A DNA stretch of 51,197 bases from Minisyncoccota bacterium (GTDB lineage Bacteria; Patescibacteriota; Minisyncoccia; Phycocordibacterales; UBA918), in NCBI GenBank assembly GCA_035324355.1, contig DAOLBU010000002.1, positions 1 through 51,197 on the forward strand, read 5' to 3'. Within the stretch, counting starts at the first letter, position 1; each line of letters starts with the position of its first letter. The notes below the pieces were generated by a model, which saw only the letters and a list, made by a program, of their open reading frames with translations, was not told the DNA's origin and made no database searches. Below, piece by piece: positions 6,884-51,197 of the stretch. Position numbers and translations under genes: made by a program.

Positions 6884-7885
6884 ATGGTTAAGAAAAAAGT
6901 GGTGGTCGTCGGCGGGGGCACGGGTACACATACGGTTTTGCGTGGTTTACGTCGTTTTGCTAATACTTTAGATATTGCAGCCGTCGTCAGTATGGCTGAT
7001 TCGGGAGGTTCGACCGGACGACTCCGTGATGAGTTTGGTCTGTTACCGATTGGTGATGTCCGTAATGCTCTGACAGCTTTAGCTGCTGAGGGAGATAAGT
7101 ACGACTCGCTCATGCGGCAGTTGTTTTTGTATCGCTTTGACAAGGGACAAGGTTTACAAGGCCATAATTTTGGTAATTTACTTTTAACCGCTTTGACAGA
7201 TATTTTAGGTGACGAAGTCCAGGCTATAGACGCTGCTTCGCATCTACTTAAAGTATCTGGTCGAGTTTTGCCAGTGACCACAAATAATTCTCAACTTGTA
7301 GCACTGTATGAAGATGGTTCTGTTATCGAAGGCGAAAGTCAAATAGAAGACAGTACTGCACATTTGTCTCAGGCCAGAATAAAGGCTTTATCTTTAAATC
7401 CCAAATCGTACATTAGTGGGCCAGCGGCCCAGGCCATTATGGAGGCAGATATGATTGTTTTAGGTCCTGGAGATCTTTACACTAGTGTGTTAGCTAATTG
7501 TATTGTTACTGGTTTTACTGAAGCTTTAAAATCAAGCCAAGCGACAGTGGTATATGTCTGTAATTTAATGACTTGCCGCGGTCAGACTATTGGCATGCAT
7601 GCCTCAGAGCATATAGAAGAAATCAGAAAATATATCGGTCGGTGGCCAGACGTTGCTTTAGTCAACAATTCAATTTTTGATTCCGAACTTCTTGGGCGCT
7701 ACCAGGAGGAGGGCGCCCATCCAGTACTCAATAATTGTGTAGGTGATACCTGTACGATTGCTGCCTTGCCTTTAGTTGGGCAAGAAGAAATAATTTTGAG
7801 TTCAGGCGATGTTGTTAAACGAAGTTTGATTCGACACGATTCAGATTTTTTAGCGCGGACTTTAGTTTCACTTATGCCAAACTAG
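6884..7885 (+). CDS. yvcK: YvcK/CofD-family (UPF0052) gluconeogenesis/cell-shape factor
   Basis: VVVGGGTGTHTVLRGL, MADSGGSTGRLRDEFGLLPIGDVRN and VLGPGDLYTS. Confidence 0.85.
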   Translation: MVKKKVVVVGGGTGTHTVLRGLRRFANTLDIAAVVSMADSGGSTGRLRDEFGLLPIGDVRNALTALAAEGDKYDSLMRQLFLYRFDKGQGLQGHNFGNLLLTALTDILGDEVQAIDAASHLLKVSGRVLPVTTNNSQLVALYEDGSVIEGESQIEDSTAHLSQARIKALSLNPKSYISGPAAQAIMEADMIVLGPGDLYTSVLANCIVTGFTEALKSSQATVVYVCNLMTCRGQTIGMHASEHIEEIRKYIGRWPDVALVNNSIFDSELLGRYQEEGAHPVLNNCVGDTCTIAALPLVGQEEIILSSGDVVKRSLIRHDSDFLARTLVSLMPN

Positions 7886-43778: not shown

Positions 43779-44111
43779 ATGAAAATAATCACTAAAATTT
43801 TACTCGTCGCTTTGGTGCTTTTGATAGTGGCAGAGTATGTTCCAGGTATTGTTGTTGAGGGTGTTTATCCAGCTATTATTGCCGCGATTGTCCTCGGGAT
43901 TTTGAATGTCATTGTTAAGCCAATTTTGTTTATCTTAACTTTGCCTATTAATATTCTGACGCTCGGACTTTTTACCTTCATTATCAATGCTAGCTTATTT
44001 TGGTTTGCCGCTACGTTTGTTGAGGGCTTCGCTGTTAGTAATTTTTGGTACGCTTTGTTCGGCTCCATCATAGTTACGGCTGTTAGCTCTTTTGCAAACC
44101 GTTACCTCTAA
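43779..44111 (+). CDS. PF04020 (DUF360 / phage holin 4_2 family) small membrane protein
   Basis: 110 aa with 3-4 TM helices and the family-typical VKPILFILTLPINILTLGLFTFIINA. Confidence 0.7.
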   Translation: MKIITKILLVALVLLIVAEYVPGIVVEGVYPAIIAAIVLGILNVIVKPILFILTLPINILTLGLFTFIINASLFWFAATFVEGFAVSNFWYALFGSIIVTAVSSFANRYL

Positions 44112-46694: not shown

Positions 46695-47621
46695 ATGAAA
46701 GGAGTCACTATTGACGGAGTAGAATACTTGCCTGCAACTAGTCTGGCTAAGCAGTTTCGATATACAACAGATTATATCGGTCAGCTCTGTCGAGCAAAGA
46801 AAGTCGATGCCAAATTAGTAGGGCGTACTTGGTACGTTAACCCGTTATCATTAACGAAGCATAAAACCGCTCGATACAAGAAGGTAGAGCCAGCCGAGAA
46901 AACTACTGAAATAGCTAAAGAAATAACATTATCTCGGACAGAAGTGAATCCGGAAATATTTGTCAGTAAGCATCAAAAACTACAACCAACGCAACAGCCA
47001 CATTTTTCTCGCCGCATTGATTGGAAGCCTTTAAAATACGAAGCAGATGAAGTTGAGCTTTTACCTAAAATGACTCGCCCGGATGCTATTCCTCATAAAA
47101 TAAAGCTTAATCTAGCAGAAGCTACATCTATTTCAGTAAAAAACAGCTCTAAAGATGAGAAAATGGTCGCGGATGAACTACCAGCCGTTTCGCTAAGAGG
47201 CAAGCTGACTATTGAGTCTCTCAATGATAGTTTTGCCGAAACTGCAGAGACAGCTGTTCCGGAAACACCACTTTCAGAAGCAAATAATATCGCAGAAAAT
47301 ATAGTCAGTTTGTTAAATATTCCGCCCTCTGCACCCAAGCGCTACATTCATTACCCTGCAAAATTAAATTCCAGTGTGTCACTGATACCTACAAGACAAA
47401 CCCGTGCTAAAACTACCACCGCTACTGTTCCTGTAGTTGAGGCGAAATCAGGGAGAGGTCTCGAGGTACTACTTCTGACGAGTACAACAGTTTTGGCTGG
47501 TTGCTTGTTTTTACTTTTATTTGGTGAACTTAACTTAAACGCCCGACCAGGATCTTATGAGTGGGAATTTATTTTTTCTACTCAGTCACTGCCGGCGCTT
47601 GTCTCCCTTTTTTCACAGTAA
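46695..47621 (+). CDS. membrane-anchored protein with an N-terminal excisionase/MerR-type HTH (HTH_17-like) domain
   Basis: N-terminus YLPATSLAKQFRYTTDYIGQLCRAKKVDAKLVGRTWYV matches the HTH_17 pattern (..GR.W.I/V). A single TM helix lies near the C-terminus (VLLLTSTTVLAGCLFLLLFG). Confidence 0.55.
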   Translation: MKGVTIDGVEYLPATSLAKQFRYTTDYIGQLCRAKKVDAKLVGRTWYVNPLSLTKHKTARYKKVEPAEKTTEIAKEITLSRTEVNPEIFVSKHQKLQPTQQPHFSRRIDWKPLKYEADEVELLPKMTRPDAIPHKIKLNLAEATSISVKNSSKDEKMVADELPAVSLRGKLTIESLNDSFAETAETAVPETPLSEANNIAENIVSLLNIPPSAPKRYIHYPAKLNSSVSLIPTRQTRAKTTTATVPVVEAKSGRGLEVLLLTSTTVLAGCLFLLLFGELNLNARPGSYEWEFIFSTQSLPALVSLFSQ

Positions 47622-47696: not shown

Positions 47697-48509
47697 ATGT
47701 CTGAGTCATTTGAAATTAACGGTATTTCTTTTCTTCCTATCAAGGATGCGGCTAAGCTCGTCTCTTACTCTCGAGACTACGTAGCTCGGCTGGCACGTGA
47801 GAAAAAAATCGTAGCTTCACAAATTGGTCGCCAGTGGTTTATTGATGTCGTCTCACTCAAGAGTTTTGCTGAAGCAGCAATTTTGGAGCAATCAGTCCGT
47901 CAGCAGTATTTGAGTTCGCAGCGGAAACGTGAGCAGTCGCTCCGGGAGGAAATGAACGCTATCAAAAAATCTTTCAAGGGTAGAAGTCGTACGATTCACC
48001 GTCAGGCGCAACTTGTCTCTTGTTTGGCTCTGGTGTTTGGTTTGCTTGCTGGTACCGGTCTTTTTACATTTTCATCATTATCTTTTTATTCAGGACAAAC
48101 CTTCGAACCTTTAGCCGTGGCTGAGCAGGGTCCAGCATCAGGAAGTTCAGATTCACGCGAATCCGAGTCTTACCTAGTCAGCCATGAAAATTTGACTTTA
48201 GCGCAGGCTGAGCCGCAAGTCATGACGGTGTTAAATAGTGTTTCCGACAAGCCGGTCTTTGCAGATGAGACTGAAGTTAGAGAGTTGTCTGAGGTTGATA
48301 CTAAAGGCATTTTCTTGCTACCGCGAAATGGACAGATACAAGATATCGAAAAAGTACGAGCGATGTTTTCTGACGATTTAAATATTAAATTTATTGATGA
48401 TAGTACTGGAGTCATAGTTTATTTTAAAGAAAACGGGGAACGGATTGAATTTCCTTTTGTGTCTGTGCCTCTTCATGACGAGACTACAGTTAAGGCTGAG
48501 AACCAATAA
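47697..48509 (+). CDS. membrane-anchored protein with an N-terminal excisionase/MerR-type HTH (HTH_17-like) domain (paralogue of 46695..47621)
   Basis: N-terminus FLPIKDAAKLVSYSRDYVARLAREKKIVASQIGRQWFI. TM helix LVSCLALVFGLLAGTGLFTF at about aa 105-125, followed by a ~140-aa C-terminal domain. Confidence 0.55.
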   Translation: MSESFEINGISFLPIKDAAKLVSYSRDYVARLAREKKIVASQIGRQWFIDVVSLKSFAEAAILEQSVRQQYLSSQRKREQSLREEMNAIKKSFKGRSRTIHRQAQLVSCLALVFGLLAGTGLFTFSSLSFYSGQTFEPLAVAEQGPASGSSDSRESESYLVSHENLTLAQAEPQVMTVLNSVSDKPVFADETEVRELSEVDTKGIFLLPRNGQIQDIEKVRAMFSDDLNIKFIDDSTGVIVYFKENGERIEFPFVSVPLHDETTVKAENQ

Positions 48510-48517
48510 TCACCAGT

Positions 48518-51197
48518 ATGTTAGGTTCTTTTTACAAAACAAAAACCCTCCTCCTCTGCCTTTTCTCTATCAGTTTATTATTAAACCCACTTTTTGCTTT
48601 TTCCCAAATAAATCCCCAAATTAATTATCAAGGTAAGTTAACCAATCCTTCTGGCGTGGCTGTACCAGACGGTTTGTACAACATGAATTTTTGGTTGGTG
48701 CCCACTGAAGTTGGGGCCACCTCAACTGCCATTTGGAGTGAGACACGCATTGGTGGAGACAGGGTCCAGGTCACTAATGGTTTGTTTTCGGTCATGCTCG
48801 GAGAGGTAAGCACCCTTACGGGAGTAGACTTTAACCAAACACTTTATCTTGGTGTCGAAATCGGTGGCACTGGTACACCGACCTGGGATGGTGAGATGAG
48901 TCCTCGAAAAATATTAGGAGCTGTTCCGGCCGCTTTTGAGGCCAAGAATGCTCAGACCTTGGGCGGTATTGCTACTTCATCTTTCCTCCGTTCCGATGAG
49001 GTAGACGTAATGTCGGCCACTTCAAGTTCGCCAATACTTTCTATAATTCAAAATGGTGCTGGTAAGATTTTTAGTTTATTTAGTGGCGTGACAGAATTTT
49101 TTACCGTTTTAGGAAACGGCAACGTTGGTATAGGTACCACTACCCCCCTAGCAAAACTTGATGTCCAAGGTATAGCGGGAGCCGACCCGGCTTTCCGAGT
49201 GTCTTCATCAACAAACTCCACGATGTTCACGATTAATGCAAACGGCAACGTTGGTATCGGCACCACTACTCCTGTTGCAAGAATTCATGCCCAGTCCGGT
49301 ACGTCAACTCAAGTAGCAATAATAGCTCAGATGGCGGCGGGTCAGACAGCCTCTCCGTTTGAGGTGCGTGATAGTTCGGGTAACACTCTTATTGGTGTGA
49401 TACCAACTGTAAATGTTGGAGTTCTTAGGGTTCATCGTCCAGGAATACCGAGTCAATATATTGAACTCCAGGGAGGAGGTGGTTCGTTTGGTTCGCTTAT
49501 CTCTTTTGAAGGACTGTCAAGAATTCAAGGTCGTTCTGGTGGTATGCTCATAGGTCCAGAGACCTCGTCTGATTATCGTTGGCACTTCGGAGACTCAATG
49601 TTAAGTCGTCAGACATTGACCGTAACTTCTGGTGACCCAACATCTAACCGTGCAGTTGACGGACACCATCTTATTGTTAGAGGTGGTAATGCAAACACTG
49701 CAATGGGAACCGATAGAGACGGTGGAAATTTGTATTTACGAGGTGGACTGAAGAAAGGTGGCGGGACAGATGGTTTTGTTATTTTTGACCAGGGTAATGT
49801 CGGTATTGGTACCACCACTCCAGGTTCACTATTCTCGGTTACAGGTACTTCAACGCTGCAAAACATTCTCCCACAAGGTCCTTACACTGAAAACATGTCT
49901 AACTATAGTATCGGTGCTTCAAACGCACGATGGAGTCAAATGTGGGCAGAGACATACAATGTCGGTACTTCTACCTGGTCTATCGCTGCTACTGGTAGTG
50001 ATAGATTTGCGATCTTTAGTGGAGCCAGTAAGTCAGGAACAGAAGCACTTTCGATTTTATCTAGTAACCGTTATGTCGGTATCGGTACTTCCAATCCCGG
50101 CGTTAAGCTTGAAGTAGTTGGAGATATTATTTCTAAGGGCACAGAGTGGACAGCTCGGAGTGCACCTACATATGTAATGTACAGCGTAGCATATGGTAAT
50201 GGTTTGTTCGTGGCGGGTGGTGCTTCTATGATCTTAACTTCTCCGGATGGATTAAATTGGTCGACCACTACTGTAGACCACTCTGCCAATTGGTTTGGGG
50301 TTGCATATGGTAATGGTTTGTTTGTGTTGGTAGATATAAACAATGGACACGTCGCCACATCCCCAAATGGGGCTGACTGGGCGACTTCAACTCCTGTTGC
50401 TGGTAAGTACTGGTTTGGTACCGCTTACGGTCAAGGTAAGTTTGTGGTGGTCGGTGAAGACGATGATTTAATTGATAATGTCATGACTTCATATGATGGT
50501 ATTAATTGGAAGGAGGACACAAGTGCAAATCCGGGTACTAACTGGAACTCTGTCACCTATGGAAATGGTGTATTTGTCGCAGTCAATTCAGGGAATACAA
50601 TGACTTCATTAGATGGCACAAATTGGATATCACGGAGTGGAGGTGCTGGTAATTTTGTCACCTACGGCAACGGTCTGTTTGTCTCCGTTGGCTCTAATTC
50701 AATCAGGACATCCCCCGATGGTATTAATTGGACAACGCGCACGTCCCCCGCTAATAATAATTGGCGTTCAGTTACCTACGGCAACGGCCTCTTTGTGGCA
50801 GTATCTAATAGCGGTACCGGCAACCGTGTCATGACCTCTCCTGATGGTATTAATTGGACCACTCGCGCTAGTGCGGAAGATAACTCCTGGCGGGGTGTCA
50901 CCTACGGCAACGGTTTGTTTGTGGCTGTTGCTTCTGATGGTACAAATCGTGTTATGACTTCGGGTAAAACTGAGTTGAATGTACTAGCGCATAATAATAT
51001 TTATCAAGGCGGTATGAGTATCTTTGGTAATGTTGGGATTGGTCTCGTAACACCAGAGTCTGAGTTTCATGTAGAGGGTACTATTCGTGCTTCTAATCTC
51101 GGTGGCGGGGCGACTACACTCAGTACTGATGCTAACGGTAACATTATTCGTACTCCTTCTGACGCTAATTTAAAAATAGCGGTGGTAGAATTGAATG
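48518..51197 (+). CDS. secreted tail-fibre-like surface protein (partial, 3' end outside the window) with an embedded 7-bladed beta-propeller
   Basis: My own translation shows the frame open from ATG 48518 to the window end (893 codons, no stop). It is absent from the ORF track. Signal peptide: MLGSFYKTKTLLLCLFSISLLLNPLFAFS. INYQGKLTN..GLFSVMLG module. Five GNVGIGTTTP-type motifs. The last codons (TPSDANLKIAVVELN) resemble the start of a peptidase S74 intramolecular chaperone domain. Confidence 0.78.
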   Translation, partial: MLGSFYKTKTLLLCLFSISLLLNPLFAFSQINPQINYQGKLTNPSGVAVPDGLYNMNFWLVPTEVGATSTAIWSETRIGGDRVQVTNGLFSVMLGEVSTLTGVDFNQTLYLGVEIGGTGTPTWDGEMSPRKILGAVPAAFEAKNAQTLGGIATSSFLRSDEVDVMSATSSSPILSIIQNGAGKIFSLFSGVTEFFTVLGNGNVGIGTTTPLAKLDVQGIAGADPAFRVSSSTNSTMFTINANGNVGIGTTTPVARIHAQSGTSTQVAIIAQMAAGQTASPFEVRDSSGNTLIGVIPTVNVGVLRVHRPGIPSQYIELQGGGGSFGSLISFEGLSRIQGRSGGMLIGPETSSDYRWHFGDSMLSRQTLTVTSGDPTSNRAVDGHHLIVRGGNANTAMGTDRDGGNLYLRGGLKKGGGTDGFVIFDQGNVGIGTTTPGSLFSVTGTSTLQNILPQGPYTENMSNYSIGASNARWSQMWAETYNVGTSTWSIAATGSDRFAIFSGASKSGTEALSILSSNRYVGIGTSNPGVKLEVVGDIISKGTEWTARSAPTYVMYSVAYGNGLFVAGGASMILTSPDGLNWSTTTVDHSANWFGVAYGNGLFVLVDINNGHVATSPNGADWATSTPVAGKYWFGTAYGQGKFVVVGEDDDLIDNVMTSYDGINWKEDTSANPGTNWNSVTYGNGVFVAVNSGNTMTSLDGTNWISRSGGAGNFVTYGNGLFVSVGSNSIRTSPDGINWTTRTSPANNNWRSVTYGNGLFVAVSNSGTGNRVMTSPDGINWTTRASAEDNSWRGVTYGNGLFVAVASDGTNRVMTSGKTELNVLAHNNIYQGGMSIFGNVGIGLVTPESEFHVEGTIRASNLGGGATTLSTDANGNIIRTPSDANLKIAVVELN
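50138..50965 (+). repeat. seven tandem ~40-aa coding repeats (propeller blades; Asp-box-like SPDGINW + YGNGLFVAV)
   Basis: Seven YGNG(L/V/K)FV cores, six of them followed by S(P/L/Y)(D/N)G..W. The DNA-level repeat ACCTACGGCAACGG(T/C)(C/T)T(G/C)TTTGT occurs at about 50660, 50777 and 50900, and GATGGTATTAATTGGAC at about 50718, 50843 and (shorter) 50494. Confidence 0.7.

What the first reader, a model, noticed from the sequence alone, without database searches (positions are those of the whole stretch)
48518..51197. Secreted tail-fibre-like protein of more than 890 aa, missing from the ORF track, combining phage-fibre modules with a 7-bladed propeller
The frame is open from ATG 48518 to the end of the window. 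The track lists only out-of-frame and antisense shadows here. The features are: a Sec signal peptide; an N-terminal INYQGKLTN..NGLFSVMLG module; five copies of the GNVGIGTTTP motif that punctuates phage tail-fibre/endosialidase-chaperone proteins (49115, 49241, 49793, 50069, 51026); a 7-blade propeller; and, at the very end, TPSDANLKIAVVELN, which looks like the beginning of a peptidase S74 intramolecular chaperone domain. No phage structural, terminase or integrase genes are nearby. This looks like a cellular adhesin built from phage-fibre parts, a plausible host- or partner-attachment organelle for an episymbiotic lifestyle.
Basis: partly seen in the sequence, partly recalled or inferred. 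Interest (0 to 1): 0.62.

Follow-up and report, generated by a model that had tools for sequence, protein, structure and literature searches.

The report
Self-cleaving surface fibre of CPR bacterium
This is a real chromosomal gene of an ultra-small (Paceibacteria/CPR) bacterium for a secreted fibre of about 1,036 residues, built like the prey-gripping "MAT" fibres of Bdellovibrio, with a seven-bladed propeller near its tip and a phage-type self-cleaving end cap; it is a typical member of a very large but unstudied family and a good candidate for how these bacteria hold on to other cells.

Summary
The frame is open from 48518 to the window end. All five GNVGIG-type motifs, seven propeller blades and an SDANLK Ser/Lys motif are present.

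The window stops at a 10-N scaffold gap, not at the contig end. Beyond the gap the contig encodes the rest of a Peptidase_S74 chaperone (Pfam 36 bits, cutoff 22), a coiled coil and a Pro/Glu-rich tail. A close homologue shows that about 7 codons are hidden and the frame is single, giving about 1,036 aa.

The base domain after the signal peptide is a conserved Ig-like sandwich that is distantly homologous to the Bdellovibrio MAT base (NF053851 matches 29 of 56 relatives). It defines more than 17,000 protein clusters. The shaft resembles only Bdellovibrio MAT fibres in the PDB. The propeller is a widespread, sporadically inserted module.

The gene sits in a locus conserved across about 70 Patescibacteria species (Obg–GatB–two HTH membrane proteins–fibre). 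It is tightly linked to a four-gene cassette that is distantly related to the CPR Pam pilus. There is no phage context.

Verdict: a new member of a known kind (S74-capped MAT-like fibre). Adhesion itself remains inferred.

The parts
46695..47621 (+). u308: conserved upstream gene. Its N-terminal HTH is paralogous to that of the next gene, and the rest of the protein is unknown.
   Evidence: 37% identity to HTH270 over aa 6-59. Present upstream of the fibre gene in 51 of 80 named loci. No Pfam hit.
47697..48509 (+). HTH270: excisionase/MerR-type HTH followed by a hydrophobic segment and a C-terminal domain. Its stop codon lies 8 nt before the fibre start. Candidate membrane-bound regulator (inference).
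   Evidence: Pfam HTH_17 at 30 bits. NCBIfam excisionase domain at E 6e-5. Conserved directly upstream of the fibre in 47 of 80 loci.
48518..48604 (+). Sec-type signal peptide (aa 1-29, MLGSFYKTKTLLLCLFSISLLLNPLFAFS|Q).
   Evidence: Read from the sequence. Helix at aa 7-26 in the model. The base domain starts at residue ~30-60 in nearly all of the 150 best family members.
48605..49012 (+). Conserved base domain (aa 30-165): an Ig-like beta-sandwich with invariant INYQGxL, W, GLFSxxLG, YLG, EMxPRK and VPAAF motifs. MAT_N-like.
   Evidence: pLDDT about 90. Invariant columns. NF053851 Bdello_MAT_N scores 25.9 bits here and matches 29 of 56 relatives, best E 2e-11. 37,588 clusters at E<=1e-3. No PDB neighbour.
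49013..50137 (+). Shaft (aa 166-540) with four GNVGIGTTTP-type capping-loop motifs (aa 201, 243, 426, 519). Predicted to be trimeric fibre.
   Evidence: Motifs. The only PDB sequence matches are Bdellovibrio MAT fibres: Bd2133 8ond at E 0.003 and 8ojn at E 0.024. PHROG tail-fibre families at 2e-8 and 1e-7. Low pLDDT as a monomer.
50138..50977 (+). Seven-bladed beta-propeller (aa 541-820) with YGNGxFV...TSxDGxxW repeats.
   Evidence: pLDDT 85-96, with 7 blades of 4 strands closed by strand 544-547. Foldseek: Vgb lyase TM 0.79, Ycf48 TM 0.69. Pfam DUF6242 and EPTP hits are weak. The module is widespread, occurs in 11 phage records and lies within reach in only 8 of 80 orthologous loci.
50978..51157 (+). 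Terminal stalk (aa 821-880) with the fifth capping-loop motif, GNVGIGLVTPESEFHVEGTI. This would be the mature C-terminus after cleavage.
   Evidence: 69% identity to P0210 residues 1111-1161. The motif matches Bd2133 loops.
51158..51197 (+). Start of the Peptidase_S74 intramolecular chaperone: S881-D-A-N-L-K886, the Ser/Lys dyad motif SDxxxK. The gene continues beyond the window (contig C2 numbering equals window numbering). A 10-N scaffold gap lies at 51198-51207 and hides about 18 nt. The S74 body, a coiled coil, a 43-aa Pro/Glu tail and the stop codon lie at 51208-51620. The linked cassette follows: d232 at 51920-52618, d360 at 52638-53720, d255 at 53727-54494 and d534 at 54503-56107.
   Evidence: Pfam PF13884 matches profile positions 1-58 across the join at 36.1 bits, cutoff 22, and scores 34.7 bits on the post-gap piece alone. 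Gap sequence. Spacing and frame from homologue P0210. Cassette ORFs. d255 matches NF058579 PamT at E 1e-9. Linkage to the fibre gene.

Best explanation
The gene encodes a Sec-exported surface fibre of about 1,036 aa in a Paceibacteria (CPR) bacterium, of the same kind as the Bdellovibrio MAT (mosaic adhesive trimer) fibres.

Proposed mechanism:
1. After signal-peptide removal, the conserved Ig-like base domain (aa 30-165) holds the fibre at the cell envelope. It probably does so through the products of the tightly linked Pam-pilus-like cassette.
2. The shaft (aa 166-540) and terminal stalk (aa 821-880), punctuated by GNVGIGxxxP...L capping loops, fold as an intertwined trimer.
3. The C-terminal S74 intramolecular chaperone nucleates that trimerisation. 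It then cuts itself off at Ser881 (Ser881/Lys886 dyad), and leaves with its coiled coil and acidic Pro/Glu tail.
4. The mature tip then displays three seven-bladed propellers around a short stalk. The propeller is the variable, exchangeable ligand-binding module that contacts another cell's surface.

Shown here: the domain identities, the homology, the single continuous gene, the cellular conserved locus, and the mosaic base-conserved/tip-variable pattern.

Inferred: trimerisation, autocleavage, anchoring route, ligand and host-attachment role.
For: Gene and motifs.

The S74 domain scores above the Pfam cutoff and has the SDxxxK motif. A single frame across the gap is supported by homologue P0210.

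The base domain is homologous to the Bdellovibrio MAT_N model in 29 of 56 relatives (best E 2e-11). It folds as a confident beta-sandwich with no PDB neighbour, as reported for the MAT base (PMC10769870).

The shaft matches only Bd2133 and 8ojn in the PDB, and shares their capping-loop motif.

The propeller is confident, seven-bladed and closest to Vgb lyase and Ycf48.

Mosaic pattern: the base is 47-80% identical in same-genus orthologues of 900-3,100 aa, and the rest is unrelated. The propeller is present in 1 of those 8 orthologues and in 8 of 80 orthologous loci.

Fixed chromosomal locus: Obg-GatB-u308-HTH270-fibre in about 40 species, and cassette-fibre in about 32.

The fibre and the cassette co-occur (18/4/3/16, Fisher p 3e-5, not corrected for phylogeny). 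They lie on the same strand within 1-14 kb in 10 of 10 genomes.

d255 is related to the CPR pilus protein PamT.

There is no phage match to the base or shaft and there are no phage genes nearby.
Against: The trimer could not be modelled. The shaft and stalk have pLDDT below 50 as a monomer.

NF053851 scores are all far below its 60-bit cutoff, so this protein is not in the curated Bdellovibrio subfamily.

The gap sequence is unknown, so an in-frame stop inside about 18 nt cannot be formally excluded.

The propeller gives no clue to its ligand, and one of its closest structural neighbours (Vgb lyase) is an enzyme.

This genome has a single copy, against 21 MATs in Bdellovibrio. About half of the relatives lack the base domain, so the fibre is accessory rather than essential.

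The acidic Pro/Glu tail after the chaperone is also found in relatives without S74, and it has no explained role.
Confidence: 0.7

Rival explanations
1. Same fibre, different anchoring. The fibre is the distal, host-recognising arm of a minimal Pam-type pilus. Its Ig-like base domain is joined by donor-strand exchange to the PamT-like proteins d232/d255. The membrane-anchored d360 acts as chaperone, and the FN3/TM protein d534 tethers the assembly. In this reading the fibre does not bind the wall or S-layer directly.
For: There is tight, rearrangement-resistant linkage between the cassette and the fibre gene across families. d255 matches PamT at E 1e-9. The cassette's parts list matches the Pam operon as described in PMC13278184. 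The base domain is an Ig-like sandwich.
Against: No complex prediction was possible. The PamT hit is far below the family cutoff (38 against 240 bits). Four genomes have the fibre without a detectable d360, and three have the cassette without the fibre. Bdellovibrio MATs share the base domain but have no reported Pam system.
Confidence: 0.3
2. The propeller is catalytic, so the protein is a fibre-mounted depolymerase or lyase. It would be analogous to phage endosialidase tailspikes (propeller enzyme, stalk, S74 cap) and would degrade a host surface polymer rather than merely bind it.
For: The order propeller-stalk-S74 is that of endosialidase tailspikes (established knowledge; cited in PMC10769870). 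The best structural superposition is to the enzyme virginiamycin B lyase (TM 0.79).
Against: No glycosidase, lyase or sialidase family hit was found in Pfam or NCBIfam. Sequence identity to Vgb lyase is 11%. Ycf48-type non-enzymatic propellers match about as well. The repeat is a very common module attached to many non-enzymatic architectures. Catalytic residues were not examined.
Confidence: 0.12
3. The gene is a receptor-binding protein left over from a prophage or tailocin.
For: There are PHROG tail-fibre hits, an S74 cap, and propeller homologues in 11 phage genomes.
Against: The protein has a Sec signal peptide. The flanks are housekeeping genes (SecA, Obg, GatB, GAPDH). The same locus is conserved in about 70 species. 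The base and shaft have no phage match. No capsid, terminase, integrase or baseplate genes lie within 56 kb.
Confidence: 0.03
4. The gene is broken or chimeric. The scaffold gap joins two unrelated contigs, or hides a frameshift, so the S74 body does not belong to this ORF.
For: The reading frame differs on the two sides of the 10-N gap. Reads could not be consulted.
Against: The Pfam S74 profile runs continuously across the join, covering positions 1-58. Homologue P0210 matches both sides colinearly (69% and 54% identity), with spacing that implies 7 codons and a restored frame. A 10-N run is a conventional placeholder for a gap of unknown length.
Confidence: 0.05

Closest known systems
Bdellovibrio bacteriovorus MAT (mosaic adhesive trimer) fibres, S74 subgroup, e.g. 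Bd3182; also Bd2133 (PDB 8OND). Caulton et al. 2024, PMC10769870
   Same: Both have a signal peptide followed by a conserved beta-rich base domain of about 130 aa with no PDB homologue. Both have a long fibre punctuated by V-G-x-G...P...L capping loops, a swappable distal module and an optional C-terminal S74 chaperone with SDxxxK. Both are chromosomal and non-phage. The base domain matches NCBIfam Bdello_MAT_N, and the shaft matches Bd2133 and 8ojn.
   Different: The host is a monoderm-like CPR bacterium, not a diderm predator. There is one copy per genome, not 21. The base-domain scores are below the curated subfamily cutoff. The capping loop is one residue longer (VGIGTTTP...L). The propeller sits before the last stalk segment. 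The gene is linked to a Pam-like cassette and two HTH membrane proteins. A Pro/Glu acidic tail follows the chaperone.
Phage endosialidase tailspikes (K1F endoNF, PDB 3GW6/3GVK) and the phage T5 L-shaped fibre with a C-terminal intramolecular chaperone (Peptidase_S74)
   Same: The C-terminal S74 domain has a Ser/Lys dyad (SDxxxK). The order is propeller, then short trimeric stalk, then self-cleaving chaperone.
   Different: The propeller here has seven blades and no sialidase signature (endoNF has six). There is no virion-attachment N-terminus; a Sec signal and a cellular base domain take its place. No significant direct sequence hit to these PDB entries was found.
Ycf48/HCF136 (PDB 5OJR, 2XBG) and virginiamycin B lyase (PDB 2Z2P), both seven-bladed propellers
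   Same: The fold matches: a seven-bladed beta-propeller with TM 0.69-0.79. The Asp-box-like SxDGxxW turns are as in Ycf48-type propellers.
   Different: Sequence identity is 11-15%. The context is unrelated (photosystem assembly, antibiotic lyase). Here the propeller is a module inside a fibre.
Pam pilus of Candidatus Mycosynbacter amalyticus (Troman et al. 2026, PMC13278184)
   Same: This comparison concerns the linked cassette, not the fibre. It contains small secreted Ig-like pilin-type proteins (d255 matches PamT at E 1e-9), a C-terminally membrane-anchored putative chaperone, and an FN3 protein with a C-terminal TM helix like PamR.
   Different: No PamA/PamB-type major pilins were recognised. 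Scores are far below the family cutoffs. The reported Pam distribution is Saccharimonadia and Microgenomatia, not Paceibacteria. No fibre gene is described in the pam operon.

Membership tests
Peptidase_S74 / intramolecular chaperone of tail fibres (PF13884) | Match to the family HMM above the curated cutoff | tested here: met
   36.1 bits against a cutoff of 22, covering profile positions 1-58 across the gap join. 34.7 bits for the post-gap piece alone.
Peptidase_S74 / intramolecular chaperone of tail fibres (PF13884) | Catalytic Ser-Lys dyad in an SDxxxK motif at the cleavage site | tested here: met
   S881-D-A-N-L-K886. The same motif is present in homologue P0210 and in 10 other relatives.
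Peptidase_S74 / intramolecular chaperone of tail fibres (PF13884) | Trimerisation-dependent autoproteolytic release of the chaperone | not testable with these tools
   This needs expression of the stalk+S74 construct, wild type against S881A.
MAT (mosaic adhesive trimer) fibre family (Caulton 2024; NCBIfam NF053851 Bdello_MAT_N) | Conserved beta-rich domain of about 130 aa directly after the signal peptide, homologous to MAT_N | tested here: inconclusive
   NF053851 hits at E 7e-6 (25.9 bits, cutoff 60), and matches 29 of 56 relatives with best E 2e-11. Homology is supported, but membership of the curated Bdellovibrio subfamily is not met. The fold is a beta-sandwich without a PDB neighbour, as described for MATs.
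MAT (mosaic adhesive trimer) fibre family (Caulton 2024; NCBIfam NF053851 Bdello_MAT_N) | Fibre with V-G-G/N-pi-x-x-P-x-x-x-L capping loops | tested here: met
   Five loops of the form (N)VGIG(T/L)xxPxxx(L/V/F), one residue longer than the published consensus. They align with Bd2133 loops in PDB 8ond.
MAT (mosaic adhesive trimer) fibre family (Caulton 2024; NCBIfam NF053851 Bdello_MAT_N) | Conserved base with exchangeable distal modules | tested here: met
   The base is 47-80% identical while the rest is unrelated in 8 orthologues of 900-3,100 aa. Distal domains in relatives include LamG, beta-helix, FISUMP and LVIVD.
MAT (mosaic adhesive trimer) fibre family (Caulton 2024; NCBIfam NF053851 Bdello_MAT_N) | Trimeric fibre on the cell surface that binds another cell | not testable with these tools
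   No multimer prediction, proteomics or imaging was available.
BNR/Asp-box sialidase-type propeller | Canonical SxDxGxTW Asp-boxes and a BNR or sialidase HMM match | tested here: not met
   The repeat is TSxDGxxW, one residue shorter than the canonical box. There is no BNR or sialidase hit in Pfam or NCBIfam; only DUF6242 at 25.5 bits (below its cutoff of 29) and a repeat-level EPTP hit.
Prophage or tailocin tail fibre | Location among phage structural genes, and no Sec signal | tested here: not met
   The neighbours are housekeeping and envelope genes. The chromosomal locus is conserved. A signal peptide is present.

The most novel reading that the evidence does not exclude
The fibre and the adjacent four-gene cassette form one hybrid appendage that is widespread in Paceibacteria. 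A minimal, usher-less Pam-type donor-strand-exchange stalk (PamT-like d232/d255, membrane-anchored chaperone d360, FN3 anchor d534) would carry a phage-style, S74-matured trimeric fibre through the fibre's conserved Ig-like base domain. The distal modules (here a propeller) would be swapped between strains to change host range, and the two upstream HTH membrane proteins would control expression.
Probability: 0.25. Interest if true: 0.75.

Novelty: new member of a known kind. Interest (0 to 1): 0.5.

Why it matters
How Paceibacteria and other CPR bacteria recognise and hold their hosts is largely unknown. Microscopy shows unidentified extracellular material at attachment sites (PMC10936435).

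This gene is a clean and relatively short example of a huge family: more than 17,000 clusters at E<=1e-10 share its base domain. The family combines a conserved base with exchangeable tips, which is the logic of phage receptor-binding proteins and of Bdellovibrio prey-recognition fibres.

I found no paper in the searchable library that describes this family in CPR. At about 1,036 aa, with two confidently folded globular domains and an S74 cap, it is a tractable construct for three tests:
- autocleavage,
- trimer structure,
- ligand screening.

Its strict linkage to a Pam-like cassette gives a testable anchoring hypothesis.

Tried and rejected
I used spacing against a homologue instead.
2. The whole-protein homologue search was swamped by the propeller repeat. 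It said little about the family, so I repeated it on residues 1-540.
3. Foldseek of the whole model returned only generic propellers, so I modelled the base domain separately.
4. The base domain gave nothing significant against PDB by profile, PDB by fold or viral folds. It therefore remains a fold without a characterised neighbour.
5. A single-sequence PDB search with the S74 region gave only weak hits (8jov at E 0.013, MyRF at E 0.41).
6. Only one of six scored at all, at 16.9 bits and below cutoff, so the claim is not established here.
7. The prophage reading was rejected on context and on the phage-database search.
8. The canonical Asp-box/sialidase reading of the propeller was rejected.
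9. Promoter and terminator scans around the gene were no better than shuffles. No clear Shine-Dalgarno sequence lies in the 8-nt spacer.
10. Literature searches for CPR/Patescibacteria combined with S74, tail fibre or MAT found nothing relevant.
Full report
**Observation.** The frame from ATG 48518 is open to the last base of the window and gives 893 residues.
- GNVGIGTTTP occurs at residues 201, 243 and 426.
- Two variant copies occur: YVGIGTSNP at 519 and GNVGIGLVTP at 837.
- Seven YG[NQ]GxFV repeats lie at residues 559-803 with a 35-44 residue period. Six of them carry TSxDGxxW.
- SDANLK lies at residue 881.

In 20,000 shuffles of the protein, none of these patterns occurred more than once. 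Otherwise the description is accurate.

**The missing C-terminus.** The window is positions 1-51197 of a 56,846-bp contig in a 0.96-Mb, 53-contig genome that is 97.8% complete. The window ends exactly at a run of ten N, at contig positions 51198-51207. Beyond the gap, in a different frame, the contig reads …QLRGVSYAWLDTERFGVDREIGFLAQEVDLVFPEVVRKGGEYWSLNIGNLVAVVVEAIKEI…. A heptad-like helix follows, then a 43-residue tail that is 72% Pro+Glu, then a stop at contig 51618-51620.

Joined across the gap, the sequence matches Pfam Peptidase_S74 over the whole profile at 36.1 bits (cutoff 22). The post-gap piece alone scores 34.7 bits. Homologue P0210 matches both sides colinearly, at 69% identity before the gap and 54% after. 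Its spacing implies that about seven codons (18 nt plus the two split codons) are hidden, which restores one frame. The gene therefore encodes about 1,036 residues.

**Anatomy.** The AlphaFold model, built from 56 aligned relatives, is confident for two globular parts.
- Residues ~30-135 form a beta domain with pLDDT 81-95.
- Residues 541-820 form a propeller of seven four-stranded blades, closed by the first strand, with pLDDT 85-96.

The shaft (residues 258-538) and the last stalk score low. That is expected for an intertwined trimer modelled as a monomer, so it is neither support nor refutation.

The propeller superposes best on seven-bladed propellers: virginiamycin B lyase (TM 0.79) and Ycf48 (TM 0.69). 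It has no sialidase or BNR family hit, and its turn motif is one residue shorter than the canonical Asp-box.

Modelled alone, the base domain is a beta-sandwich with pLDDT about 90. It has no significant neighbour in the PDB by profile or by fold. It shows only generic likeness to small uncharacterised phage proteins.

**Family.** Searching with the whole protein mostly finds the propeller, a very common module attached to many architectures. Searching with residues 1-540 finds more than 2,000 proteins. Where named, these come almost entirely from Patescibacteria. About a third of the best hits end in PF13884, and others carry LamG, beta-helix, FISUMP or LVIVD modules. NCBI calls some of them "tail fiber domain-containing protein".

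The base domain has invariant INYQGxL, GLFSxxLG, YLG and EMxPRK motifs. Its profile finds 37,588 representative clusters at E<=1e-3 and 17,368 at E<=1e-10, nearly always directly after the signal peptide, in proteins of 200 to about 5,000 residues.

NCBIfam's Bdellovibrio model NF053851 (mosaic adhesive trimer, N-terminal domain) hits this protein at E 7e-6 and hits 29 of 56 relatives (best E 2e-11). All scores are below the 60-bit subfamily cutoff. The only solved structures that resemble the shaft by sequence are the Bdellovibrio MAT fibres Bd2133 (E 0.003) and 8ojn (E 0.024). The match runs through the same capping-loop motif.

Caulton et al. (PMC10769870) define MATs by five features:
- a signal peptide;
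- a conserved beta-rich base of about 130 residues without PDB homologues;
- a meandering trimeric fibre with such loops;
- swappable tips;
- in 13 of 21 cases, an S74 cap with SDxxxK.

All of these that can be tested in silico are seen here. Their list of non-Bdellovibrio examples does not include Patescibacteria.

**Cellular, not phage.** Upstream lie Wzy-like ligase, MurB, SecA, a small membrane protein, Obg and GatB. Downstream lies GAPDH. In 50,697 phage records only the propeller has matches (11 records, at most 41% identity). The base and shaft have none. S74 occurs once in this genome, and the protein has no paralogue there.

**Conserved locus and mosaicism.** The base domain is present in 22 of 41 related genomes, usually once. 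It is 60-85% identical, and it heads open frames of about 440 to 3,400 residues. Eight full orthologues share only the first ~165-220 residues (47-80% identity). One carries the propeller mid-protein, none has SDxxxK, and most end in an acidic Pro/Glu tail.

A pattern scan of one genome per species found 461 loci. The best 80 are nearly all Patescibacteria, and the closest is a Candidatus Parcubacteria MAG. Among these 80:
- about 40 show Obg-GatB-u308-HTH270-fibre, as in the window;
- about 32 show (d232)-d360-d255-d534-fibre;
- several combine both arrangements.

The propeller is within reach in only 8 of the 80. S74 caps occur in 21 of 41 relatives, always on large ORFs, and several of them sit at this same locus.

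**The linked cassette.** Directly downstream, at contig 51920-56107, are four genes:
- two paralogous small secreted proteins, d232 and d255;
- d360, a protein with a C-terminal TM helix and a weak WxLIP hit;
- d534, an FN3 protein with a C-terminal TM helix.

d255 matches NCBIfam "CPR-type pilus protein PamT" at E 1e-9, far below the equivalog cutoff. The parts list parallels the Pam operon of Troman et al. (PMC13278184).

In all 10 genomes where both genes lie on one contig, the d360 orthologue is on the same strand within 1-14 kb of the fibre gene. It is downstream in this genus and upstream in other families. Presence and absence are associated: 18 genomes have both, 4 the fibre only, 3 the cassette only and 16 neither (Fisher p 3e-5, not corrected for phylogeny).

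Earlier notes of this scan had suggested this link in other genomes. I treated those notes as leads and tested the link independently here.

**Interpretation.** The best-supported reading is a Sec-exported, S74-matured, trimeric MAT-like surface fibre. Its conserved base holds it at the envelope, and its exchangeable propeller-bearing tip binds a ligand on another cell.

Shown: the domains, the homology, gene continuity, the chromosomal conservation and the mosaic pattern.

Inferred: trimerisation, cleavage at Ser881, the anchoring route and the adhesive role.

The rivals are:
- anchoring through a Pam-like stalk, which elaborates the same reading (about 0.3);
- a catalytic propeller (about 0.12);
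- a gap chimera or pseudogene (about 0.05);
- a prophage remnant (about 0.03).

**Novelty.** The kind of system is known from Bdellovibrio MAT fibres and phage S74 fibres, and this gene is a typical, compact member. What is not in the literature I could search is that the family is widespread in Paceibacteria, sits at a fixed locus, and is coupled to a Pam-like cassette. I rate it a new member of a known kind, of moderate interest.

Noticed in passing
contig C2 51198-51207 (just past the window end; L001 7199-7208): A 10-N scaffold gap lies inside the S74 domain. It truncates the called protein to 893 aa and creates a spurious 141-aa ORF for the remainder. Gene callers and the public protein record therefore split one gene in two.
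   Followed up: yes
contig C2 51920-56107 (L001 7921-12108): A four-gene cassette (d232, d360, d255, d534) is linked to the fibre gene across Paceibacteria. d255 is distantly related to the CPR pilus protein PamT. d360 has two distant paralogues elsewhere in this genome (C26:7947-8756 and C22:7631-8425).
   Followed up: partly
window 46695-47621 and 47697-48509: Two paralogous proteins have an N-terminal excisionase/MerR-type HTH, a hydrophobic segment and a C-terminal domain. They are conserved immediately upstream of the fibre gene in about 50 of 80 species. They may be membrane-bound regulators of the locus.
   Followed up: partly
contig C2 about 51490-51617 (L001 about 7491-7618); also the C-termini of L009-L011, L014, L016 and P0210: Pro/Glu-rich acidic tails end the fibre proteins whether or not they carry S74. 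In this protein the tail would leave with the cleaved chaperone. Its role is unexplained.
   Followed up: no
L009 (G010:C2), L010, L011, L013, L014: At the orthologous position, same-genus genomes carry giants of 2,400-3,100 aa. Their C-terminal regions (…GNSDLAEMYFS…GRVPV…) differ from S74. Only one gave a weak Peptidase_G2 hit (16.9 bits), so the cap type is unresolved.
   Followed up: partly
L035 (labelled Candidatus Azotimanducaceae) and L090 (labelled Hyphomicrobiales): L035 comes from a MAG labelled as non-CPR, yet it carries the full Paceibacteria synteny Obg-GatB-u308-HTH270-fibre at about 60% identity, so it is probably mis-binned. L090 shows only the base domain within the fetched flanks.
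   Followed up: no
window 43779-44111: A 110-aa protein of the Pfam 'Phage_holin_4_2' family lies between SecA and Obg. The family name suggests phage, but the context is purely housekeeping.
   Followed up: no
G021:C1 about 407400-420950 and G010:C2 about 66700-74000: In relatives, 6-13 kb separate the base-domain fibre from the cassette. In G021 this interval holds a second giant ORF (2,232 aa) with an S74 cap but no detected base domain. Such loci may therefore encode several fibres.
   Followed up: no
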